Origin: a virus
Taxonomy: Duplodnaviria > Heunggongvirae > Uroviricota > Caudoviricetes
DNA length: 64,000 bases
Direction: 5' to 3' (one strand)
IMG/VR virus record: IMGVR_UViG_3300034072_002212
Coordinates: 94,417-158,416 of that record
Shown here piece by piece: positions 9,156 to 33,870 of this stretch. Below the pieces are notes generated by a model. It did not search any database. It worked only from the letters and a program-made list of their open reading frames with translations, and was not told the DNA's origin. The first letter of the stretch is position 1; the number at the start of each line of letters is the position of its first letter. The position numbers and the translations under genes were made by a program.

Positions 9156-9291
9156 TGCGACCCTCTTTGTTCTGTTCTTGCGGGTCGTAGGAAAGCCCTA
9201 CTGTTACCTCCTGAATATACGGAGTCCAGTAGGGCTGCGTCTATAAACTGGAGGCTATGCCGCCCCCATATTTATCGAAAAATCCAGCTTT

Positions 9292-10821
9292 TTAGCGGAG
9301 TTGTCGGTGAATTTCTTCCTCAAAGAGATCGGTGATCACGCTGGTTACCAGACGAGTGCCGCTTGCTGCCGCGGCTTCCTTGACAGCTTCCATGTAATCT
9401 GGATCCAAGGGCAGTTCACCTATGAAGAGGAAATTGCTGATTTGAAGGATGTTGGGTTCAGCAATCAGATCATCAATCGTGACGATGAGGTTGCTCAGCG
9501 GGCGTAAACCTCTAAGTTGGAGCGGAGTCAGCATCGTTGGGAGATGTGGATAGAGATAGCGAGCCACAGTGAACTGACGATCCCTAGACTGACTCAAGTC
9601 CTCCATCTGTAGGCCGAACTGAAGCGAGAGAACTCGCTTGAGATCCTTGTGCTCAGTGAGGAACACACAACGGGAAAGCCTATTGGCCAAGTTGGTGTGA
9701 ATATGCTTGAGATGCTGACCCTTGAGGTTGGCCCACTGACTACCCATGAGACCCCCTATAAGGGCCTGTGAGGGTCCGTCGCCGCTCAGCGCATCCGCGA
9801 CAACGCTGGATAGCTTTGACCCTGTTTCAGCCTCAATGGCCCGCTCGCGTTCGATGAGCCGGTGAAGCCCGGACTCCTTGCGCTTGTTCTGATTGAGGAA
9901 CTTAACCGTGTTGTCCTTGAACACGATTGGCGCCTTGTGACCCTGAGCATCGTCGAGCAAATGAGTCGACACACCAAACATTGCGAGTAGCTTGATGTTG
10001 TCTAGACCAGTGTAGCCACGAGCGACGAGATAGTCCTCAGCATCTTTGGCCTGACTATACATCAGAACGCCCATGTTGGTCAGACCTCCCCAGAGAAGAT
10101 CAGTGACCTGCTCGCGGATAAAGGTCAGGGCTTTGCTGCCATTGGACTGGAGGCAGGTTGTGATATCCTTACCGTGATCGTTGGGCAAGCTGTTGATGTT
10201 CTGGATGAACACTGGCTTGGGAATTTCATGGAACATACCCTTGACGGCACCATCCCACTTATAATTGATCGCACCAGCGTGATCCAGCTCTTCCACAATC
10301 GTGGAGTTCACCGTCTTCTGCTTCAAGAAGTCATGCCAGATGAGCCCACCATAGCTGCTGATGAAGACGTCGGCCTCAAAGTCAGGCTTCTCGCTGAACT
10401 CTACACCCTCAGGGAATACCAGCTCTTTCTCATGATAACGTGGGTTGCCAAAGACGCTGATCTTGGCATCCGGATAGACATCACGCACCAGCTGCGCCCA
10501 CTGAGCATAGAACTTGGGCTGGGCCATGATGAGCAGCGGACCGCCCTCGATCCACGAGTTCGCAAGCGCAACTTCACGACCACGTTCTGGCTTGCTACAG
10601 AGAATCATGCCTCGTGAATTCCAGTCTCTGATATACTGGAGAGAGCTCAGCTGGACCTGATCCAGCTTGAACGGCAAACCCTCGAGTTCCTTGGGACCCA
10701 GCAGTCCACTCATGGCCAGTTCCACGAGCTCTTCGTTGAAGATCATGTGGTTCATCTGGCTGAACATCAGCAGGCGGCGTGCCAGCCCTGGGGTTGCCTT
10801 GAAGTGCTTGATGTCGTGCAT
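9292..10821 (-). CDS. Degenerate SNF2/SF2-like protein
   Basis: LDQVQ, LLIMAQPKFYAQW, DVFISSY, TIVEELDH resemble SNF2 motifs Q, Ia, Ib and II, but Walker A is missing; TAATG-coupled start at 10821. Confidence 0.45.
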   Translation of the reverse strand: MHDIKHFKATPGLARRLLMFSQMNHMIFNEELVELAMSGLLGPKELEGLPFKLDQVQLSSLQYIRDWNSRGMILCSKPERGREVALANSWIEGGPLLIMAQPKFYAQWAQLVRDVYPDAKISVFGNPRYHEKELVFPEGVEFSEKPDFEADVFISSYGGLIWHDFLKQKTVNSTIVEELDHAGAINYKWDGAVKGMFHEIPKPVFIQNINSLPNDHGKDITTCLQSNGSKALTFIREQVTDLLWGGLTNMGVLMYSQAKDAEDYLVARGYTGLDNIKLLAMFGVSTHLLDDAQGHKAPIVFKDNTVKFLNQNKRKESGLHRLIERERAIEAETGSKLSSVVADALSGDGPSQALIGGLMGSQWANLKGQHLKHIHTNLANRLSRCVFLTEHKDLKRVLSLQFGLQMEDLSQSRDRQFTVARYLYPHLPTMLTPLQLRGLRPLSNLIVTIDDLIAEPNILQISNFLFIGELPLDPDYMEAVKEAAAASGTRLVTSVITDLFEEEIHRQLR

Positions 10822-26128: not shown

Positions 26129-26713
26129 TTACAGGCGGTTACCTGGGATCATCTCAGGCAGAGTGGTCATCAGACCATTTGCTAGAGTTGCGTTGTCGTA
26201 GCGAACGGTCAGCGTGATGGTCTGGAAGCCAGACTCACTGTAGTCGAGTTCGCTGTAGGTAACGTCCTGCAGGAAGCAACCTTCGAGGGTCCAGGTCTCA
26301 ACAACAGTGTCGTTGCCGCCGTCCATGGTCTCGATGATGGTCACAAACTTGTAGTTGATACCAGCTGCGAAAGCAGTCTGCTCAAAGTGGTTGAGCTGCT
26401 TCTGAAGCTGATGGCCAACGAGCTTGCTGACGTTGTTGGTCAGGTCGTCCTTGAGCTCGATCTCGATGGTGTTCCACGAGTGCTTACCGGCATAGTAAGC
26501 GACCGAGTTGTAGGAATCGACCTTGACCTCTTCGTGCGAGATCTTTGGCTTCGAAGCGCGCTGGACCTGCTGGGTGAAGTCGAGACCACCAGCGATTGGG
26601 CCGAAGTTGACCACGCGGACGCGGAAGCGATACTTATACTTGAGCTGGAGCAGACCACCACGGCCTTGGCCGCCGCCTAGTGGAACGCCGAATTTGGAGA
26701 GTGTCTCTGCCAT
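26129..26713 (-). CDS. gp19: Tail tube protein (gp19)
   Basis: YRFRV, WNTIEIELKDD, WTLEGCF, ELDYS, LTVRYD. Confidence 0.88.
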   Translation of the reverse strand: MAETLSKFGVPLGGGQGRGGLLQLKYKYRFRVRVVNFGPIAGGLDFTQQVQRASKPKISHEEVKVDSYNSVAYYAGKHSWNTIEIELKDDLTNNVSKLVGHQLQKQLNHFEQTAFAAGINYKFVTIIETMDGGNDTVVETWTLEGCFLQDVTYSELDYSESGFQTITLTVRYDNATLANGLMTTLPEMIPGNRL

Positions 26714-26806
26714 GGTAATCCTCCGATCGAAGTGGGGGTTTCTCTTATTTACCTGGCTCTTGACGAATAGGTTGAGATATGGCTGAAACTCTTTATAAGT
26801 AGGAGA

Positions 26807-27511
26807 ATGAATCGCTTCTTTGTTTACGCGCTAGTGGATCCAAGAAACCAGCAGCCCTTCTACATCGGTAAGGGGTGCGGAGAGCGCCCAAAGAAGCATC
26901 TCACAGAGACGCTAGAGCAGACCGACAACGTGAGGAAATTCTACAAGATCCAAGCTTTGCGAGAAGCCGGAGTTGAGCCGACAATCTTGAAGCTCAAGGA
27001 GGATCTCAGTGAAGTTGAAGCATTCCAGTTTGAGGAAGAGCAAATCCGTTACTATGGACGGAAAGGTCTAGAACCAGACGGTATCCTCACGAACCTTGTG
27101 TTCGACAATCAGCCACCAAGCCGTATCGGACGAAAGCATTCTGAGGCCACAAAGCTGAAGATCAGCCAGTCCATGACTGGTAAGCCGAAGTCGTCAGAAC
27201 ACCGCGCTAACATCGGTGCAGCCAAAGCTGGAGAGAATAGCCCACATTGGGGCCAGCCGGTTCCGGAGGAACGCAAAGCAAAGATCCGTCAGGGAAACTT
27301 AGGGAAAAAGCGTTCAGAGGATGTTCGTCGGAACATGGCCCAAGCCCACGCGGTCAAATATGAGGTGATCAGTCCGGAGGGGAAGAGAAGGATCTTAGAC
27401 AGCCTCATGCTACAGAAGCTCTGTGATAGCATGGGGCTGAATAAGACGTCCTTCACAAACTCTTGTAGGGCAGGACGCACCTACAAGGGGTGGGGTATCA
27501 AGCGGCTTTAG
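26807..27511 (+). CDS. GIY-YIG/NUMOD3 free-standing homing endonuclease
   Basis: FFVYALVDP...PFYIGKG; LTN; RKHSEATKLKIS; YKGW C-terminus; TATAAGTA promoter 26794-26801. Confidence 0.85.
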   Translation: MNRFFVYALVDPRNQQPFYIGKGCGERPKKHLTETLEQTDNVRKFYKIQALREAGVEPTILKLKEDLSEVEAFQFEEEQIRYYGRKGLEPDGILTNLVFDNQPPSRIGRKHSEATKLKISQSMTGKPKSSEHRANIGAAKAGENSPHWGQPVPEERKAKIRQGNLGKKRSEDVRRNMAQAHAVKYEVISPEGKRRILDSLMLQKLCDSMGLNKTSFTNSCRAGRTYKGWGIKRL

Positions 27512-27846
27512 CCGCGGCCACGAGGCCCTTCAATATGCTTCGTAGCAATACCGACACCCTTGCGAAGCTTGGCAAAGCACTCGTGGAGACAGTGACCTGC
27601 TGGAAGGCTCTTCTCACTAAGGCTCTCATGCTTCAGGCTTTTGTGGATCATGGCCTCTAGCGACTCGCACATATTGCGAAAGTCGTCGTGGGAAACCTCT
27701 GAACCCCAGCCATCACGGATGGATGCTTTCAGGTGATCATGAAGAGCATCGTAGACGATGTCTACGTTGTCGCAGATCACACTATCCATGATCCAGACCT
27801 GCATGGTCTCAAGCGAGTCTGGAAATGGTCCGGTGTATTCAGGCAC
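27508..27846 (-). CDS. Hypothetical protein
   Basis: 112 aa ORF. Confidence 0.5.
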   Translation of the reverse strand: MPEYTGPFPDSLETMQVWIMDSVICDNVDIVYDALHDHLKASIRDGWGSEVSHDDFRNMCESLEAMIHKSLKHESLSEKSLPAGHCLHECFAKLRKGVGIATKHIEGPRGRG

Positions 27847-27858
27847 AGGTGGGTTCCT

Positions 27859-28029
27859 TTACTGGCGGCCTGCGAACTTCTTCATTGCTTCATAAGCAAT
27901 GCGAGCACTCTCCATGAGCTCCTGGAAGTCGGCATTGTCAGCATTCTGCGCCTTCCAAGCCTCAAGGCGGGCGCGCTGATCAGCGTTAATGGACATAAAA
28001 ATCTTCTCCTGAGAAGTGGGCTTCTGCAT
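27859..28029 (-). CDS. Small hypothetical protein
   Basis: AAGGAG RBS before MQKPTSQ; late promoter 28140-28145. Confidence 0.6.
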   Translation of the reverse strand: MQKPTSQEKIFMSINADQRARLEAWKAQNADNADFQELMESARIAYEAMKKFAGRQ

Positions 28030-28139
28030 GGTATAACTCCTTTTCACCAGGACCTTCAATATCTTCCTGGTTGGCTAAGTAGGCAGTAACCTTGAAACCG
28101 GCGGGTTCTCAAGTCGACCACCTGCGACTGAACTACCCA
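28030..28139 (-). ncRNA. Small structured RNA / structured leader just downstream of ro60
   Basis: GGUAGU/ACUGCC closing stem encloses AGUCG/CGACU and GAACC/GGUUU hairpins; starts right after TAAATA. Confidence 0.35.
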
Positions 28140-28198
28140 TATTTATGTATGCAGAAAACTCGGTTGGGACGGAGATAAATTGATTTTCAGTCATGGAA

Positions 28199-28224
28199 AT
28201 GGGGAGGATGTTTCCATCCTCCCC
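28199..28224 (-). terminator. Terminator after ro60
   Basis: GGGGAGGATG-GAAA-CATCCTCCCC followed by AUUU. Confidence 0.7.
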
Positions 28225-28235
28225 ACACCGTGGCC

Positions 28236-29975
28236 TTACTTCGCGAAGAAGTCCGACATGATCTGCGGAGCAGCCGTGTCGAAACCAACAACGTCCATCA
28301 TACCGCTGTCCTTGGGATCAGCGATGGTCACGTTCGTTGCGGTCATACCAACCACAGCCGACTTCGCGGGGATGCCGGTCTTCTGGCGGTATGCCTTCAG
28401 CGCCTGCGAGGGTGCCTGACGACCCGCATAAGTCTCATTGTCGGTGTAAACCGCAAAGGACTCGACGGGCAGCTTGCGCTCCAGGGCCCACTCGAAGGGC
28501 AGCGAACAATCGGTCGAACCGAAGGGCAGACCGCTGATCGTCTTGATCACGTCGTCCAGCCGCTGACGCGGGCTGATCTTCAGGATCGAAACAGGACCAG
28601 CGTCCACGACGTTGGAGTTCTTCGTGCCGCTCGAACCCCAACCGTAGCCGCCGGAGCGACCACCGGTGAAGCCGATGAATTCGTAAGAGCTCTCAACGTT
28701 CGCCGTGATCAGAGCCATCGCAGCCGAAGCAACGCGAGGGTTCAGACCAGGGATGCCTGCGATGTCGCCCGAGCCCATGGAGCCCGAAACGTCCAGCGCC
28801 AGCAGCGTGTTCTTGCCCGTGGGCGTCACGTTGCCGAACGAACCGTAGAACGCCTGATCCAGTGCGTCGGTAACGCGACCGGTAGGAGTCCAGGTCAGGC
28901 TACCCTTGACACCGCGGCCCTGACCATAGGTCCGGAGCGCAGCGAGGATCGCGATCGGGTGAACGCGAGCCCGGCGGATAGCGTCGGAGTCCGACAGCTT
29001 GCTGATGACTAGCTTCTCGGCCGCCGACATGGAAGTCAGCAGACCAACGCTGGACATCTTGCCCAGGTTGCGGATCATCGCCGTCAGAGGCATGTTGGTC
29101 AGCAGAGCCTCCCAGACCTTGGCATCATTCAGGAACTGAGTGGGGATCGCCTCACGGGGGAGGTTGTGATCCTGGATCAGCTTGATGATGTCCTTGGCCG
29201 AAGTTGCCTGCTTCGCCGCCTCGAAAGCGAGGATCTGCGGGTGGAGGATCGTCGAAGCGTCCTGGCGTGCCAGGCGAACCTCGTCCTCGAGAACTGCAGA
29301 GCCACGGACATAGTCCGAAGCGCCGACCGCGCTCATACCGCCGACCATCCAGCGCAGAACTGCGTCACGTGCCGCGTCGTCCGACTTGGGGTGACCCAGA
29401 CGGAGCATGTCGCGGTGCGACCAGCCATCGCGCTGCTGATATTTGATTGCCTGGTTGGCCAGACGATCCAGCGGCATCTCGAGATACCAGTTGCCCACCG
29501 CGCGACGGAGCGCACGACCCCAACCGCGAACACCATCGACGAACGCAGCGAAGTGGAACAGGTGGGTGCCGATACGCGCGACCTTGGGCAGCGCAGCCAG
29601 AGCAGCCTTGCGGGTTGCCTCACTGTCAGCCGCCGAAGCGAGTGCCAGCACGAACAGCGCAGGGTCGTTCTTGGGAGCGCGACCAGCATCGCTGATCTCG
29701 ACCACACGGTTGACCACACGGACACCGTCCTCGGCGATCAGACGCAGAACGTTCTGAGCCGCAGCCTTGGTCAGTTCCTTCTCACCCACATAGTAGGTGC
29801 CGCCCTCGGTGCCGAGGATCAGGAACCGGTCCAGCTGGTCCCACGGGGAGACGACGAAGCTGAAGCCGCCGGCGTTGTTCTTGGTCATCTCCGCCTCGCG
29901 GCCGGGGATTGCCTGGGTTTGTGGGGTCTGGTTGGGCAGAATTGCGCCCATGAGAGTCTTGGTCGACTTCGACAT
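28236..29975 (-). CDS. rsr: Ro60/TROVE-domain RNA-binding protein (Rsr)
   Basis: NNAGGF, RFLILGTEGGTYY, GWGRALRRA, KYQQRDGWSHRDMLRLGHP, MPLTAMIRNL, vWA LALDVSGSM and YTDNET; GGAGG RBS before MSKSTK. Confidence 0.95.
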   Translation of the reverse strand: MSKSTKTLMGAILPNQTPQTQAIPGREAEMTKNNAGGFSFVVSPWDQLDRFLILGTEGGTYYVGEKELTKAAAQNVLRLIAEDGVRVVNRVVEISDAGRAPKNDPALFVLALASAADSEATRKAALAALPKVARIGTHLFHFAAFVDGVRGWGRALRRAVGNWYLEMPLDRLANQAIKYQQRDGWSHRDMLRLGHPKSDDAARDAVLRWMVGGMSAVGASDYVRGSAVLEDEVRLARQDASTILHPQILAFEAAKQATSAKDIIKLIQDHNLPREAIPTQFLNDAKVWEALLTNMPLTAMIRNLGKMSSVGLLTSMSAAEKLVISKLSDSDAIRRARVHPIAILAALRTYGQGRGVKGSLTWTPTGRVTDALDQAFYGSFGNVTPTGKNTLLALDVSGSMGSGDIAGIPGLNPRVASAAMALITANVESSYEFIGFTGGRSGGYGWGSSGTKNSNVVDAGPVSILKISPRQRLDDVIKTISGLPFGSTDCSLPFEWALERKLPVESFAVYTDNETYAGRQAPSQALKAYRQKTGIPAKSAVVGMTATNVTIADPKDSGMMDVVGFDTAAPQIMSDFFAK

Positions 29976-30064
29976 ATTGACTTCCTCCATTTTCGGCTCG
30001 TGAAACCCACGAGCAAGGTTGGTCCCTGACATTAGGACCGGATCAGTCTCGATCTGAAGCTCTG

Positions 30065-30361
30065 TTAGAGCGGCAAACGACTTTCGTCAAGTGCCTTTTT
30101 CAGAGCTGACAAGGTTTCTTCCGGAGAAGAAAAAGTCTTGTTCATATGAACCGGCTTGCTGATCATCACGTGGATCATGTTCTCTCCGAAGAATCGAATG
30201 AGACCAAAACCCTCGAAGCGACCGTTGCCGGGCTTGCGGTTGTTCCAACGAGTGCGCCACGCCTTGTTGACGTTGTGCTCGTAATTGCTTTCGACGCCCA
30301 GCAGATCTGCGACGTCCTGGTAGAACTTCTCTTCTACCGACACAGTTTCGTTTTCCATCAT
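30065..30361 (-). CDS. Hypothetical protein
   Basis: 98 aa; late promoter 30365-30370. Confidence 0.65.
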   Translation of the reverse strand: MMENETVSVEEKFYQDVADLLGVESNYEHNVNKAWRTRWNNRKPGNGRFEGFGLIRFFGENMIHVMISKPVHMNKTFSSPEETLSALKKALDESRLPL

Positions 30362-30399
30362 TCCTATTTAAGCACAGGAATGGGAAAACGTCAACCCAA

Positions 30400-31241
30400 A
30401 AAGAATGGGGTGGAGGGCTGGGCGAACCATACCCTCCGGGTTATTCCCATATAGGGAATTGGTTGAGATTGGTCTGGACCGAGATCCAGCGCCCTACTTT
30501 GCGTCATCAACAACGTAGCACTTTGAGCTCAAGGCTCGAGAGCAAGTGTGAAGGTGGACCGGGCTAGACTATCATGATAGAGATCATGATACCTATATCT
30601 CCCTAGGCAGGCCGAAGCCTGTTTCCACGTTGTTGAGTCAGCGTTTTCGGGTCTTCTCTATTTGTCATAGATAACCCACCAACATCGGCTCTTCGATCTG
30701 TTGACACTTGCCCCTGAAGTGTCAGTAAGTCTCCGGAGACCGGAGTCTCCGGAGGGGCGAGTAGGCTAGGTCTGTCCAGCACCAACCCGCGGGGCTCAAT
30801 TGAGTGGTTCGACTTGGCCCACTCGACCTAGGGAGACTATGCCTTTCATCTCCCGGCGCAGCAAGGGGTGAATTTCCGCTAGGCCCCCATTGTTTCCGAT
30901 CCAGGTAGCTAAGGAGGGACCAAAACCTGGGACTTATGACCGAAGCCAGCCCACCCTCTTTATTCGTTCCTTCCGGTTTTGGCTAGCCGGCGGAACTACT
31001 TACCCGACCCACAAATGCCTAGGGCGGGGCGAGGGGTGATCCTTCCCTCGACAAAGCTACCTTGGAGGGTTTCCCCTCAGATCACTAGAGACCCTGTTAA
31101 GGACCTCGTTGCACTTCATCCGGTCAATTCCGGATCTCTTGTCCTCCCCCGGCGCCACCCGGGCGATACCTTTATGTGTCAGCACACATCCCAGTCACCA
31201 AGAACAAGATATATGGGTTCAAGGGCCGAAGCCCCTCAGTG
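30400..31241 (-). ncRNA. Large (~800 nt) highly structured non-coding RNA candidate
   Basis: No credible ORF; TAAATA at 31246-31251; three cUUCGg, one cUCCGg and a GAAA tetraloop, all reading correctly on the minus strand; several 7-10 bp long-range helices; 5'/3' ends pair. Confidence 0.8.
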
Positions 31242-31245
31242 CCTG

Positions 31246-31251
31246 TATTTA
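31246..31251 (-). promoter_or_regulatory. T4-type late promoter core TAAATA driving the large ncRNA
   Basis: Same hexamer sits upstream of most late operons (e.g. 1555, 2447, 9269, 16405, 20452, 24082, 26746, 28140, 30365, 33798, 39502, 60756, 61616 on minus; 2436, 44307, 49642 on plus). Confidence 0.7.
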
Positions 31252-31356
31252 AGGAAATACACAAAAAATGGGCTCAAAGCAACCTTTTTCTGCAGATTTT
31301 CTCACCAGTCATGGAAATGGGCCGACATTTCTGCCGACCCACTCCCTTTGTGTGCC

Positions 31357-33759
31357 TTACTGGAACAGCGCGCCGAGGTCGTCGCCGGTTGCCACAATAC
31401 GGACTGGAATGTAGATGAACTCAATCGCCTGAACTGGCTGGATCGCAATGTCCACCCACAGTTCGTGACGGTCGATACGCTCTGGAGTGTTGTTGGACTC
31501 GTCGCAGACCACGATGAAGTCGTAGAGACCGCGCAGACCAACAAGGTCAGCCAGGAAGCGTTCGAAGGTCGTCTTGACCGAGTCACGAGTCTGGAAGTCG
31601 TTTGGCTCGAAGAGGAATGGCTTCGAGATGTTATCCAGATTGTAACGCAGGTAGTTGACCAGACGCGCCACGTTGATACGATCCAGCGAGGTATCGAGGT
31701 TGTGACGGGTCTTCTGACCATACACGACCAGACCGCGGTTTGGAATGTATGCGATTGGGTTGATCTTGTTGCTGTAGAGGAGGTCACGCTGACCGTTGTT
31801 CAGCATTGCTGCCTTGAACTCACCCTGGTCATCCAGGTAACCCACGCTAGAAGCGTTGGTGACCAGACCACGAGTGAAACCAGCTGGAGCCATCCACTGA
31901 TAGCTAACAGAGTCGTTGTAAGCGAGGGTGCGGAGTGCGATGGTCGATGGTGGGACCATGATCTCGTTACCGTCGACGTTGGTGCTCAGACCCCATGGGT
32001 AATACATACCCACGTATGGGTTGAAAGTGCTGACGCCTGCCTCACTGTTGCCGTTCGAAGAGTTGGTTGCGAACTTCTGGATTTCAGCACCAGTTGGCTT
32101 CAGACGGGCTGGGGTGTCGCCGACGATGAAAGCAACTTCCTTCATGTCGGTGTTCAGGGTCACCATCTCGTCGATGAGCTCGATGTAACCAGGAGCAGCC
32201 AGCAGGTTGAAGTAAACGGTCTCTGCGCGAATGTCTTCGTTGCTCGAGATCGTGCCAGCGAGTGCCTTGACGATCATCTGACGCTGCGCCTTGCGGCCGA
32301 AGAATGGAACGCCGCTGAGCTGGTAGCCCGAAACGTTCACCCACGAACCGTTGGTGTACTGCTTGACGTCGTTGGTCGAAGCAGCGAGGTCGAACAGCTT
32401 CATACCTTCTGCGTAGTTGACTGCCGAGGTAGAAACTGCCTCACCAAAGGCAATGCCGTCGATTGGGTCGATGTTGTTCTCGACGTTGATCGCCTTCCAA
32501 GCATTGTTGGTGCGACGATACATCTTTGGATAGTTCTCGAGATCCGAAGTGTCCACCCAGAGGTCATTCTCAACCAGCGGAGCGCCAGTGCTCTGAGTGG
32601 TTGGAGCCGAACCAAGTAGGATCACGCCGTTTGCGTCAGTTGCTGGGTAAACCGAACGGTATGCAACCCACTGACCACCCTGGCTGATCTTGACGTTCAC
32701 CGAGAGGTTCTGGTTGTTATACCACAGGGTGCCTTCCTCTGGATCGCTGGTTGGCTCTGCGGAACCAGCCTGCTCACCGAGGTTAACCCAGTTGCTGCCG
32801 TCGAACTTGCGGAAGTTGAAGACCGCACGAGTGTCCTCATGACGCAGGTAAACCGAACCGGTGACCTGTGCCAGAGTGGTTTCACGCTGCTGGCTGTAGA
32901 TTGGAACCAGAGTCTGATCCCAAGCGCCAGTTGCGACGTTGAAGGTCTTCAGCAGCCAAGTTGCTGCCGCAGAGATCGAGGTCACAACGTCTGGAGTGTG
33001 GAGGATCAGAACGCTACCAACTGCGCCGTTCGCTGGGCGGTAGGTGTTGTAGGTCAGGTTCAGGTCAGCCGAAGCACCTGCCGCAACCTTTGCGTTCTTC
33101 CATTCGGAAGTGCCGACAACCTGCCAAGTGCCGTCAACCATCTGGTAGAGGACCTTGGTCTGAGTCAGAACCACCATAGCGAAGTCGCCCTCGACCGCAC
33201 CAGCAATCAGAGGAACTGGAACGCCAGAGATGATCTCAGCAGCTTCAGTGTCAATGGAGTCTTCGTCTTCAACGACCCAGAGATCGCGCTCAGCCCACTC
33301 GCTGCCAGTGTACTCGTAGATGCCCCAGGTGTTGTTCTGAGTGTCGAGCCAGTTGGTGCCGTGAGCAGCTTCAGCACGTGGCGCAGTTGCGCGTGGCATC
33401 AGCTGAGCATAGTCGATCGCTGCGCGAATGACGAACGCGCGGTTAGCAATACCAAGATACTGGTATGCCGCATGGAGACCGAACTCGTTGAGTTCGTAAC
33501 CGTGAACAGCAGAGCCGTTCTTGGTGTAGAAAATTGGGTTGCCGAACGTCTGGAGGAGCTCGCGCTGGCTCGTGATTGGGTAGAGCTTGTTCGCGTTCTC
33601 AGGAAGGGTGCCCTCAGCAACACCGCTACCACTTGGCAGCGACTTGTATTCGTGCGTGCCGATGATGATCAGCGGAACAGTGCCTTCACCAGCCGTTGCG
33701 TAGTTGGATTCGTCGGTTACGGTAACAGAAGTACCGGGCGACACTAGAGGATAAACCAT
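31357..33759 (-). CDS. gp18: Tail sheath protein (gp18)
   Basis: LVSPGTSVTVTDES, ELNEFGL, YYPWG, PAGFTRG, INPI, YGQKT, LDRINVARL, FEPND. Confidence 0.95.
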   Translation of the reverse strand: MVYPLVSPGTSVTVTDESNYATAGEGTVPLIIIGTHEYKSLPSGSGVAEGTLPENANKLYPITSQRELLQTFGNPIFYTKNGSAVHGYELNEFGLHAAYQYLGIANRAFVIRAAIDYAQLMPRATAPRAEAAHGTNWLDTQNNTWGIYEYTGSEWAERDLWVVEDEDSIDTEAAEIISGVPVPLIAGAVEGDFAMVVLTQTKVLYQMVDGTWQVVGTSEWKNAKVAAGASADLNLTYNTYRPANGAVGSVLILHTPDVVTSISAAATWLLKTFNVATGAWDQTLVPIYSQQRETTLAQVTGSVYLRHEDTRAVFNFRKFDGSNWVNLGEQAGSAEPTSDPEEGTLWYNNQNLSVNVKISQGGQWVAYRSVYPATDANGVILLGSAPTTQSTGAPLVENDLWVDTSDLENYPKMYRRTNNAWKAINVENNIDPIDGIAFGEAVSTSAVNYAEGMKLFDLAASTNDVKQYTNGSWVNVSGYQLSGVPFFGRKAQRQMIVKALAGTISSNEDIRAETVYFNLLAAPGYIELIDEMVTLNTDMKEVAFIVGDTPARLKPTGAEIQKFATNSSNGNSEAGVSTFNPYVGMYYPWGLSTNVDGNEIMVPPSTIALRTLAYNDSVSYQWMAPAGFTRGLVTNASSVGYLDDQGEFKAAMLNNGQRDLLYSNKINPIAYIPNRGLVVYGQKTRHNLDTSLDRINVARLVNYLRYNLDNISKPFLFEPNDFQTRDSVKTTFERFLADLVGLRGLYDFIVVCDESNNTPERIDRHELWVDIAIQPVQAIEFIYIPVRIVATGDDLGALFQ

Positions 33760-33870
33760 AAACCAGCCCCTTTGCAATCGGTGGATTTCGTTACCAGTAT
33801 TTATCCAGCGGTTGAAAAGGTGGGTGGATTATGTGCTAGGAGAACCTCTACTCTTTTTCAGCTATACAGA

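What the first reader, a model, noticed from the sequence alone, without database searches (positions are those of the whole stretch)
30400..31241. Giant (~800 nt) end-paired structured RNA with its own late promoter, next to a phage Ro60 gene
Seen in sequence: an ~890-bp gap between the sheath gene and the next ORF, in an otherwise tightly packed genome. A TAAATA late core (31246-31251) points into it on the minus strand. Stable tetraloops all read correctly on that strand: cUUCGg at 31221-31236, 30937-30948 and 30608-30621; cUCCGg capping a perfect 10-bp stem at 30731-30754; GAAA at 31065-31078. There are perfect hairpins at 30570-30591 (9 bp) and 30702-30724 (8 bp). Long-range helices are 30507-30516/30627-30636 (10 bp), 30901-30910/31055-31065 (10 bp plus one bulge) and 30766-30772/30825-30831. 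The two ends pair (31210-31217 with 30446-30453; 31191-31201 with 30469-30477), closing one ~770-nt domain. Established: phage giant RNAs of this size exist (GOLLD, ROOL; some form RNA-only cages), and bacterial Ro60 genes normally sit next to their partner non-coding (Y) RNAs. Inference: this may be a new giant-RNA/Ro60 ribonucleoprotein system, or a divergent GOLLD-class RNA partnered with Ro60, expressed late in infection.
Basis: partly seen in the sequence, partly recalled or inferred. Interest (0 to 1): 0.92.

Follow-up and report, generated by a model that had tools for sequence, protein, structure and literature searches.

The report
New pseudoknotted giant phage RNA
The gene-free kilobase between the tail-sheath gene and the Ro60 gene of this huge phage encodes a real, roughly 845-base folded RNA whose first 135 bases belong to a pseudoknotted RNA family, absent from Rfam and the literature searched, that sits once per genome in dozens of mostly uncultivated phages, with or without Ro60.

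Summary
The structured RNA is real. The 995-nt gap (30362-31356) has no conserved ORF and is homologous in 9 related IMG/VR phages. Compensatory changes support 44 of 84 core pairs and 29 of 74 pairs in the 3' half. G-U pairs far outnumber A-C pairs only on the minus strand.

Rfam 15 gives no match, although the same search detects a YrlA-like RNA in a mycobacteriophage control.

The first ~135 nt (31246-31111) are the main find: a four-helix pseudoknotted core. I found it in 65 model-confirmed loci, including cultured Sinorhizobium phage Phosso, always as one copy per genome. One pseudoknot pair covaries without exception in 57 distinct sequences (C-G 28, U-A 25, A-U 4).

Most members lie between the sheath and tube genes with no Ro60 nearby. 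Four near-complete genomes carrying the core have no TROVE gene, and Atu_ph07 has Ro60 but no core. Ro60 is therefore not an obligate partner. However, every member linked to orf98/Ro60 has at least 370 nt of extra RNA.

The conserved promoter is sigma70-like. Function is unknown.

The scan noted a shorter relative in another genome (e1-5388040).

The parts
31357..33777 (-). Tail sheath gene (context). The true start is probably an internal ATG about 40 nt downstream of a GATAAATAC late-type element.
   Evidence: Pfam Phage_sheath_1C and Phage_sheath_1. tblastn 53% identity to the Phosso tail sheath. Upstream sequence.
31309..31340 (-). Hairpin after the sheath stop (GGGUCGGC/GUCGGCCC, 31319-31340), followed by the conserved motif CAUUUCCAUGA (31309-31319).
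   Evidence: The hairpin covaries among 9 relatives and the motif is invariant. The same hairpin-plus-motif module recurs after Ro60 at 28191-28201 and in relatives.
31254..31282 (-). Conserved sigma70-like promoter: -35 TTGCTT (31277-31282), 17-nt spacer, -10 TATTTC (31254-31259). Predicted start is near 31246.
   Evidence: TTGC-N17-TAnAAn is aligned in all 9 relatives. Sigma70-like promoters lie upstream of 16 of 67 family members, against 26 of 335 control windows, and are visible. The window's own -10 is weak and fails the strict consensus scan.
31246..31251 (-).
   Evidence: Present here and in L008 only. TAAATA cores do precede the sheath and tube genes by about 40 nt. It may be a second, late promoter, but it is not conserved.
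31111..31246 (-). Domain 1, the universal pseudoknotted core. P1 31238-31242/31111-31115. P2 hairpin 31221-31236. J2/3 CCUGAACCCAUA around 31210-31222. P3 31201-31209/31137-31145. P4 hairpin 31174-31189, flanked by GGUGACUGGG and UAAAGGUA. P5 hairpin 31148-31163. P6 hairpin 31119-31134.
   Evidence: RNAalifold and covariation. 65 CM-confirmed loci with 92.7% of cells paired, against 60% in shuffles and about 40% in slid controls.
31190..31217 (-). Pseudoknot: CCCA (31214-31217) pairs with UGGG (31190-31193).
   Evidence: The third pair covaries as C-G 28, U-A 25 and A-U 4 in 57 distinct members with no mismatch. The search pattern left both positions free.
30892..31110 (-). Domain 2. Hairpins 31088-31107, 31065-31078, 31029-31052, 31003-31028, 30966-30996 and 30928-30953. 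Long-range helix GGUAGCU/AGCUACC at about 31055-31061 with 30904-30910. Invariant UAAGUAGUU, ACGAAUAAAG and GAUCGG.
   Evidence: Conserved in all 9 clade members, including the short forms. Recognisable in Phosso-type and L092 RNAs by CM and by eye.
30406..30891 (-). Domain 3, the variable 3' extension. Long-range helix 30625-30635/30508-30518. Hairpins 30731-30754, 30608-30621, 30570-30591, 30831-30854 and 30802-30824. Conserved AGAUCGAAGAGCCGAUGUUGGUGGGUUAUCU (about 30660-30692). Terminal hairpin 30412-30437.
   Evidence: 29 of 74 pairs have double changes in 5-6 relatives. Whole sub-domains are deleted in L009, L010, L011 and L036.
30398..30405 (-). U-run (UUCUUUUU), 6 nt after the terminal hairpin. 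This is the likely 3' end region.
   Evidence: Read from the sequence. It is not a canonical intrinsic terminator by the consensus scan. The 3' end is inferred, not shown.
30365..30394 (-). TTGACG (30389-30394)-N18-TAAATA (30365-30370) promoter-like element, ending 3 nt before the orf98 ATG (30359-30361).
   Evidence: Conserved in the window, L005, L006, L010 and L011. It suggests that orf98-Ro60 have their own promoter, possibly giving a leaderless mRNA.
30065..30361 (-). orf98, a small conserved protein that always lies directly upstream of Ro60 in this phage group.
   Evidence: tblastn synteny in 20 or more loci, including Phosso and Atu_ph07. No Pfam or PHROG family. AF2 pLDDT 79 with no significant fold match.
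28236..30032 (-). Ro60 homologue (TROVE plus vWA).
   Evidence: Pfam PF05731 at 2.6e-43 and PF25045 at 8.7e-52.

Best explanation
Shown: window ~31246 to ~30400 (minus strand) is the gene for a non-coding RNA of about 845 nt with a conserved, covarying architecture of three parts.
- Domain 1 (~135 nt) is a compact four-helix junction locked by a pseudoknot. It belongs to an RNA family absent from Rfam 15. The family occurs once per genome in at least 60 distinct phage sequences, mostly huge uncultivated myoviruses, plus Sinorhizobium phage Phosso. Its usual place is the gap between the sheath and tube genes.
- Domain 2 (~220 nt) is shared by this clade and is recognisable in a few other lineages.
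- Domain 3 (~490 nt) is modular and varies in length within the clade.

Inferred: the RNA is a separate transcription unit. It has a conserved sigma70-like promoter after the sheath terminator, and short-form members end in intrinsic terminators before the late promoter of the tube gene. It therefore most likely acts in trans.

Most likely mechanism (inference, about 45%): the invariant unpaired nucleotides around the pseudoknot (CCUGAACCNAUA, GACUNGG, UAAAGGUA and the P5/P6 loops) form a binding platform for one conserved partner, either a host or phage protein or a small ligand. The RNA would sequester or scaffold that partner during infection. In lineages where orf98-Ro60 were inserted just downstream, the RNA grew by added domains, and Ro60 and orf98 are the prime candidates to bind them.
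For: There is no conserved ORF. Homologues at 68-74% nucleotide identity lie in the same position in 9 relatives. Covariation supports 44 of 84 pairs, 23 of 27 and 29 of 74. In the 65-sequence alignment, 75 of 84 pairs have double changes and 92.7% of cells are paired, against 60% and ~40% in controls. The pseudoknot pair gives 57 of 57 Watson-Crick pairs in three types. For strand, G-U 105 versus A-C 8 on the minus strand, and the reverse complement folds worse. The family is found once per genome. Promoters are conserved or enriched upstream, and terminators plus a late promoter separate short forms from the tube gene. No Rfam family matches the window or 13 other members. Neither of two pattern hits in 185,579 bacterial and archaeal species genomes was CM-confirmed. 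The non-coding stretch after the motif is at least 370 nt in all orf98/Ro60-linked members, and at most 320 nt in 12 of 18 sheath-RNA-tube members.
Against: There is no direct transcript evidence. No RNA run was listed. Contigs from one small library labelled metatranscriptomic cover only parts of the RNA, but the library may be DNA. In the window the -10 hexamer is weak and no canonical terminator is found, so read-through into orf98-Ro60 is possible. The binding partner is unknown, and no protein gene is consistently adjacent across the family. In some small high-GC phages the core directly abuts the DNA polymerase start codon, which looks cis-regulatory. The alignment used for one search was fitted to the model, which inflates pairing.
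Confidence: 0.55

Rival explanations
1. Ro60 partner RNA, a giant functional analogue of Y RNA. The long form binds the phage Ro60, perhaps with orf98, through domain 2 or 3. The universal core binds a second factor such as a host exoribonuclease, as Y RNA tethers Ro60 to PNPase.
For: The RNA is on the same strand as Ro60 and 0.5-3.5 kb upstream of it in the window clade, the Phosso type, L092, L016, L121 and L050. This fits the rule for bacterial Y RNAs of lying within 4 kb on the same strand (PMC4201824). Thermus phage phiLo has Y-like RNAs upstream of its Ro60 (PMC12135203). Only 134-141 nt separate Ro60 from the tube gene in L008, L009 and L011, so no other conserved non-coding RNA candidate sits near Ro60 in this clade. 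All orf98/Ro60-linked members have long extensions. Ro60 occurs in only 362 of 50,697 phage records. An invariant CGAA lies in domain 2.
Against: The core occurs without any TROVE gene in 4 near-complete genomes; a fifth has only a TROVE-like gene about 160 kb from the core. The same sheath-tube slot holds the core without Ro60 in 18 or more loci. Atu_ph07 has orf98-Ro60 but no core RNA. There is no YrlA match, although the positive control works. The full GNCGAAN0-1G motif and the tRNA-like T and D arms are absent. The co-location may reflect one ancestral insertion of Ro60 next to a pre-existing RNA gene, and the G+C content of Ro60 (60-65%) differs from its neighbours (~52%).
Confidence: 0.3
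2. Cis-acting leader, riboswitch or attenuator. The core senses a ligand or protein and controls the downstream genes (orf98-Ro60 here, the tube gene or DNA polymerase elsewhere).
For: A compact pseudoknotted junction with about 25 invariant unpaired nucleotides is typical of aptamers. In L054, L057, L058 and L060 the 3' strand of P1, followed by a U-run in L054 and L058, ends 10-35 nt before the DNA polymerase start codon. No canonical terminator is found in the window.
Against: Downstream genes are heterogeneous: tube, DNA polymerase, small ORFs and tRNAs. In most sheath-tube members a strong terminator and a separate late promoter lie between the RNA and the tube gene. In the window clade 250-700 nt of further structured RNA and a conserved promoter-like element separate the core from orf98.
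Confidence: 0.1
3. A new self-cleaving or self-processing ribozyme that defines RNA ends within phage transcripts.
For: Small pseudoknotted motifs with many invariant nucleotides, scattered through phage intergenic regions and tRNA clusters (L088, L113, L128), resemble the distribution of hammerhead and twister ribozymes (my own knowledge, not tested).
Against: The motif is single-copy per genome. It matches no ribozyme family in Rfam. Nothing in the sequence data points to a cleavage site.
Confidence: 0.07
4. A divergent member of a known giant RNA class (GOLLD, ROOL, OLE, raiA), or a group I or II intron.
For: Only its size (~845 nt) and its phage origin. A GIY-YIG homing endonuclease gene lies 3 kb away.
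Against: No match at E<=10 with permissive filters on 1.3 kb, nor at gathering score on the whole window, nor on 13 other members. The element lies between complete genes, not inside one.
Confidence: 0.03
5. A decayed protein-coding gene, or non-functional spacer that only looks structured.
For: Both strands fold better than shuffles. Phosso and Atu_ph07 annotate small hypothetical ORFs in the same interval.
Against: There are extensive compensatory changes and a strand-specific excess of G-U pairs. ORFs are not conserved. tblastx finds no similarity.
Confidence: 0.02

Closest known systems
GOLLD and ROOL RNAs (Rfam RF01998, RF03087): large ornate phage-associated RNAs of unknown function
   Same: Size class (about 600-850 nt), many covarying helices, phage-encoded, some family members lie next to tRNA genes (L088, L113, L128), and function is unknown.
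   Different: No sequence or structure match. This RNA is built on a ~135-nt pseudoknotted core that also exists alone as a small RNA. Its length varies from about 130 to about 845 nt between relatives. Whether it multimerises is untested.
Bacterial and phage Y RNAs (YrlA, RF02553; Thermus phage phiLo Yrl1/Yrl2)
   Same: A non-coding RNA gene on the same strand as Ro60 and within 4 kb upstream. Modular build, with one conserved module plus variable modules. A CGAA tetranucleotide is invariant in domain 2.
   Different: It is 6-8 times larger. It has no tRNA-like T or D arms, no GNCGAAN0-1G motif, no Ro-binding stem formed by the two ends, and no RF02553 match, while the Catera control matches. 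The conserved core is widespread in phages without Ro60.
T4 stable RNAs C and D (species 1 and 2), encoded beside the tRNA genes, function unknown (recalled from memory, not tested here)
   Same: Phage-encoded stable small RNAs of unknown function in T4-like myoviruses, some in tRNA clusters.
   Different: No comparison was run. Cultured T4-like phages gave no blastn match to family members.
Pseudoknotted riboswitch aptamers and small ribozymes
   Same: A compact multi-helix junction closed by P1, a pseudoknot between a joining strand and an internal loop, and many invariant unpaired nucleotides.
   Different: No consistent downstream gene, its own promoter and terminator, and no match to any curated class.

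Membership tests
GOLLD (RF01998), ROOL (RF03087), OLE (RF01071), raiA, HEARO | Match to the family covariance model | tested here: not met
   cmscan of the whole window at gathering score gave 0 hits. The region 30200-31500 at E<=10 gave only three chance-level hits, two miRNA families and one lncRNA family. 13 other family members gave none.
YrlA / bacterial Y RNA (RF02553) | Match to the YrlA covariance model (tRNA-like T and D arms) | tested here: not met
   No hit at E<=10 in 30200-31500 or 26650-28300. Positive control: mycobacteriophage Catera gives YrlA at 36 bits, E 1.3e-4, just upstream of its Ro60. The T-loop pattern GGTTCRANTCC occurs no more often than chance and not near Ro60.
YrlA / bacterial Y RNA | GNCGAAN0-1G motif near the 5' end (PMC4201824) | tested here: not met
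   Only an invariant (A/G/U)CGAAU in domain 2, about 280 nt from the 5' end. The G at -2 and the G at +1/+2 are absent.
YrlA / bacterial Y RNA | Encoded within about 4 kb of Ro60 on the same strand | tested here: met
   The end of the RNA is 370 nt upstream of the Ro60 start codon, on the same strand. The same holds in 6 or so lineages.
YrlA / bacterial Y RNA | Binds Ro60 | not testable with these tools
   Needs EMSA or co-IP.
Group I / group II introns | Interrupts a gene, and matches an intron covariance model | tested here: not met
   The sheath C-terminus and orf98 are complete on either side. No Rfam intron hit.
New family proposed here (CCUGAACC pseudoknot core RNA) | P1-P2-J2/3-P3(P4,P5)-P6 architecture, with CCUGAACCNAUA, GACUN'GG and UAAAGGUA, and the pseudoknot pair N:N' | tested here: met
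   The window scores 361 bits against R1 (by construction). Independent members score 20-97 bits. All helices covary, and so does the pseudoknot pair.
Ro60 (the neighbouring gene) | TROVE HEAT-repeat ring plus C-terminal vWA domain | tested here: met
   PF05731 at 149 bits and PF25045 at 176 bits.

The most novel reading that the evidence does not exclude
The RNA is a modular, giant functional analogue of Y RNA. A universal pseudoknotted core would capture a conserved host RNA-metabolism factor, and it works alone in most phages. In Ro60-carrying phages it would have been extended by domains that dock the phage Ro60 and orf98. The result would be a previously unknown kind of large ribonucleoprotein that redirects host RNA decay or repair during infection. 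Alternatively, the ornate long form self-assembles as GOLLD and ROOL do.
Probability: 0.25. Interest if true: 0.92.

Novelty: new variant of a known kind. Interest (0 to 1): 0.8.

Why it matters
Large, ornate non-coding RNAs with strong covariation and no known function are rare: GOLLD, ROOL, OLE, raiA and HEARO are the main examples. Each new class has opened new RNA biology.

This one has four useful properties.
- It has an unusually clean evolutionary signature, including a pseudoknot pair that covaries without exception.
- It exists in a natural size series from about 130 to about 845 nt, which shows how an ornate RNA is built up by adding domains to a small core.
- It lies beside a phage Ro60 gene in several lineages, which offers a direct test of whether viral Ro60 proteins use partners other than Y RNAs.
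- One member sits in an unannotated 510-bp gap of a cultured phage, Sinorhizobium phage Phosso, so experiments are possible now.

It also shows that the sheath-tube junction of many huge phages holds a conserved RNA gene that current annotation misses.

Tried and rejected
- Rfam at gathering and permissive thresholds, on the window, the Ro60-downstream region, Atu_ph07 and 13 other members, gave nothing relevant.
- blastn (distant mode) against 50,697 phage records found no match with the window RNA or with two other members as queries.
- Single-sequence blastn, nhmmer and tblastx against Phosso and Atu_ph07 found nothing. Only the profile and the covariance model found the Phosso copy.
- tRNA and tmRNA scan: none.
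- An HMM of domain 2 alone did not reach beyond the window clade.
- The genome contigs pattern scan gave 2 hits, and the metagenome scan gave one further hit with a non-Watson-Crick pseudoknot pair (L109). None is confirmed by the CM, so all three are chance matches.
- RNA-seq: no RNA run was listed. Contigs from two wastewater libraries with RNA labels cover only parts of the RNA and not the flanking genes, and one contig ends 9 nt from the predicted 5' end. The tool marks both libraries as probably DNA, and contigs cannot show ends, so I do not count this as expression evidence.
- I looked for a protein gene always adjacent to the RNA. Three unrelated small-ORF families lie upstream in different phage groups and none is universal.
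- orf98: no Pfam or PHROG family and no significant fold match. There is only a weak resemblance to the class-II aaRS anticodon-binding domain (TM about 0.4-0.6, E>1).
- The strict sigma70 and terminator scan of the window region found no sites.
- The self-complementary CUCCGGAG in the 30731-30754 hairpin is not palindromic in L011, so it is not a conserved dimerisation signal.
- Literature searches found no description of this RNA.
Full report
**Setting**

The window is part of a 181.8-kb IMG/VR virus record. On the minus strand the gene order is:
- tail sheath (31357-33777)
- a 995-nt gap
- orf98 (30065-30361)
- Ro60 with TROVE and vWA domains (28236-30032)
- small ORFs, and a plus-strand GIY-YIG endonuclease gene
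- tail tube (26129-26713)

The nearest deposited phages are Sinorhizobium phage Phosso and Agrobacterium phage Atu_ph07. Both have the order sheath, orf98, Ro60, tube.

The gap holds no ORF longer than 60 codons. The longest ORFs in nine homologous regions differ in place, strand and frame.

A single-sequence fold is 3.4 sd more stable than shuffles on the minus strand. The plus strand is also 3.0 sd more stable, so energy alone is not informative.

The decisive evidence is comparative.
- A search of IMG/VR with Ro60 returned 31 loci. In eight of them (L005-L012), with Ro60 72-84% identical, the interval between sheath and orf98 is homologous to the window gap at 68-74% nucleotide identity. 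A DNA pattern search added one more, L036.
- RNAalifold on the shared 356-nt core finds 84 pairs, 44 of them with changes on both sides.
- The 3' half gives 74 pairs, 29 of them with double changes.
- On the minus strand the predicted pairs include 105 G-U and 8 A-C cells. The reverse complement gives a worse consensus fold, with A-C above G-U.

This is therefore an RNA read from the minus strand, the strand of the neighbouring genes.

For the helix 31055-31061/30904-30910, the compensations GGUAGCU/AGCUACC, GGUAGUU/AACUACC, GGUAAC/GUUACC and GGUGGU/ACCACC can be read directly in alignment A2.

**What is not right in the observation**

The two helices said to join the ends use 31210-31217 (CCCAUAUA) and 31191-31201 (UUGGUGACUGG). 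These are the most conserved single-stranded segments of the whole family, and they take part in a pseudoknot proven by covariation (see below). Their proposed 3' partners are missing in L008-L011. The 5' domain closes on itself instead, through P1 at 31238-31242/31111-31115.

The TAAATA at 31246-31251 is shared only with L008. All nine relatives instead share TTGC-N17-TAnAAn directly after the sheath terminator hairpin. TAAATA cores do precede the sheath and tube genes by about 40 nt. A late start is therefore possible in this phage, but it would remove the 5' strand of P1.

**A wider family**

A profile and a covariance model of the core (R1) found divergent copies in two places. One is in Phosso (L001:5279-5479, E 5e-14), inside a 510-bp unannotated gap. 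The other is in L016.

I then scanned IMG/VR and JGI metagenomes with two patterns drawn from the invariant segments. These gave 43, 36 and 45 loci. Of the loci searched, 65 are confirmed by the model.

The shared part is the first ~135 nt:
- P1
- hairpin P2
- the joining strand CCUGAACCNAUA
- a 9-bp P3 that encloses GACUN'GG, hairpin P4, UAAAGGUA and hairpin P5
- hairpin P6

On the 65-sequence alignment, 92.7% of cells are paired, against 60% in shuffles and about 40% when partners are slid. 75 of 84 pairs show double changes. This alignment is fitted to the model, but the MAFFT-based alignments agree with it.

The joining strand pairs with the P3 interior (CCNA with UN'GG). The search pattern left N and N' free. 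Among 57 distinct true members the pair is C-G 28 times, U-A 25 times and A-U 4 times, and never a mismatch. The three non-Watson-Crick pattern hits are chance matches that the model rejects.

The RNA is present once per genome in the five genomes with a copy that were searched whole (four, plus the window's own record), and Atu_ph07 has none. The scan of 185,579 bacterial and archaeal species genomes gave two pattern hits, and neither was confirmed by the model. Rfam matches neither the window nor 13 other members. Literature searches found no description.

**Context and transcription**

In at least 18 loci the core sits between sheath and tube with no Ro60. In others it lies before a DNA polymerase gene, after a dCTP deaminase gene, or in tRNA clusters.

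Sigma70-like promoters are visible upstream of many members. Under a strict definition they occur upstream of 16 of 67 members, against 26 of 335 control windows. Short forms are followed by intrinsic terminators and then by the ATAAATA-type late promoter of the tube gene.

The simplest reading is a stand-alone small RNA gene of about 150-200 nt. In the window clade it has been extended to 390-850 nt.

**Relation to Ro60**

For a link:
- The RNA is co-oriented with Ro60 and 0.5-3.5 kb upstream of it in the window clade, the Phosso type (L001, L093, L127), L092, L016, L121 and L050. This matches the positional rule for bacterial Y RNAs (PMC4201824) and the arrangement in Thermus phage phiLo (PMC12135203).
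- In this clade there is no room for another RNA gene next to Ro60.
- Every orf98/Ro60-linked member has at least 370 nt of non-coding sequence after the core. By contrast, 12 of 18 sheath-RNA-tube members have 320 nt or less.

Against an obligate link:
- Four near-complete genomes with the core have no TROVE gene. A fifth has only a TROVE-like gene about 160 kb away. Five further records that carry the core are all incomplete (2-68% by CheckV). Four have no TROVE match, and one has a weak sub-threshold one.
- Atu_ph07 has orf98-Ro60 and no core.
- Rfam's YrlA model detects a Y-like RNA upstream of Ro60 in mycobacteriophage Catera, but nothing in the window or in Atu_ph07.
- The published GNCGAAN0-1G motif is absent.
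- The Ro60 gene has 60-65% G+C against about 52% around it. This fits a later insertion next to an older RNA gene.

I put the Ro60-partner reading at about 0.3, and it applies only to the added domains.

**Mechanism**

Shown: a conserved, pseudoknotted, single-copy RNA with many invariant unpaired nucleotides, with modular 3' growth.

Inferred: it is transcribed on its own and acts in trans as a folded binding platform.

A cis-regulatory role is less likely because the downstream genes are heterogeneous and are insulated by terminators and promoters. However, the small high-GC phages in which P1 abuts the DNA polymerase start codon keep that option open. A ribozyme role cannot be tested here.

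**Expression**

No RNA run was listed. In one very small wastewater library labelled metatranscriptomic, the only contigs that match the 1.7-kb stretch lie inside the RNA (depths 12 and 45). One of them ends 9 nt from the predicted 5' end, and the flanking sheath gene and orf98 are not covered. The tool flags the library as probably DNA, and contigs cannot show ends. This is a hint only.

**Earlier notes of this scan**

A first-reader note on another genome (e1-5388040) describes a ~340-nt RNA from TTGCGC-N17-TATAAG right after the sheath hairpin. That matches the short forms seen here (L009, L010 type) and the promoter I found to be conserved.

**Verdict**

This is a real, large, structured non-coding RNA that belongs to a new and fairly widespread phage RNA family. 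The giant size is lineage-specific, the Ro60 link is possible but not required, and the function is unknown.

Noticed in passing
window 28236-30032: The Ro60 gene has 60-65% G+C, while the flanking genes and the RNA have about 50-56%. This suggests that Ro60 was acquired horizontally, later than its surroundings.
   Followed up: no
window 30065-30361 (orf98); L001:6835-7158; L002:10833-11153: A small protein with the invariant motif RWNNRxPGNGRFEGxG always sits directly upstream of Ro60 in this phage group, and in L084 it occurs without Ro60. It has no Pfam or PHROG family. The AF2 model (pLDDT 79) has only weak, non-significant likeness to the class-II aaRS anticodon-binding domain. It may be a partner of Ro60 or of RNA.
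   Followed up: partly
window 31309-31340 and 28191-28225; also L001:8994, L004:1774, L006:7813, L013:7742: A GC-rich hairpin followed by the conserved motif CCAUUYCCAUGA occurs after the sheath gene and again after Ro60. In the window 16 nt are identical (CCCATTTCCATGACTG), so the module brackets the RNA-orf98-Ro60 block. It could be a terminator or processing module, or a recombination footprint.
   Followed up: partly
window 30365-30394: TTGACG-N18-TAAATA ends 3 nt before the orf98 ATG and is conserved in relatives. This suggests a leaderless or nearly leaderless orf98-Ro60 mRNA.
   Followed up: no
window 28030-28146 (minus strand): After the Ro60 terminator comes CATAAATA and then about 110 nt of leader before a small ORF with a good RBS. 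The leader contains GGGUAGUUCAGUCG, which resembles a tRNA D-arm. ARAGORN and Rfam find nothing there, and the segment is absent from relatives in which Ro60 abuts the tube gene.
   Followed up: partly
window 26807-27511 (+): A GIY-YIG/NUMOD3 homing endonuclease gene lies on the opposite strand, between the Ro60 block and the tail tube gene. This is another sign that the sheath-tube junction is an insertion hot spot.
   Followed up: no
L001 (Phosso PV764938.1) 288,250-288,760: The 510-bp unannotated gap after CDS 394 is filled by the Phosso member of the RNA family. It contains an internal U-run plus TTGACG-N18-TAAATA, followed by a piece homologous to the window's GAAGCCGAUG...GGGUUAUCU motif. 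The modules are therefore arranged differently from the window.
   Followed up: partly
L050:4819-5658 and 9175-10731: In an unrelated high-GC phage the core RNA lies between a ligase-like gene (KLDG nucleotidyltransferase motif) and, 3.4 kb downstream, a Ro60 gene. This is an RNA-repair-like neighbourhood.
   Followed up: no
L088:3440-3470, L113, L128: Family members sit directly after or before tRNA genes. In L088 the core starts 4 nt after a tRNA 3' end.
   Followed up: no
L046, L071, L056, L079 (ORFs between sheath and RNA): Small basic proteins of 109-119 aa with the N-terminal motif RNF/YKVRIxN lie between the sheath gene and the RNA in several huge phages. They are absent in the window clade.
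   Followed up: no
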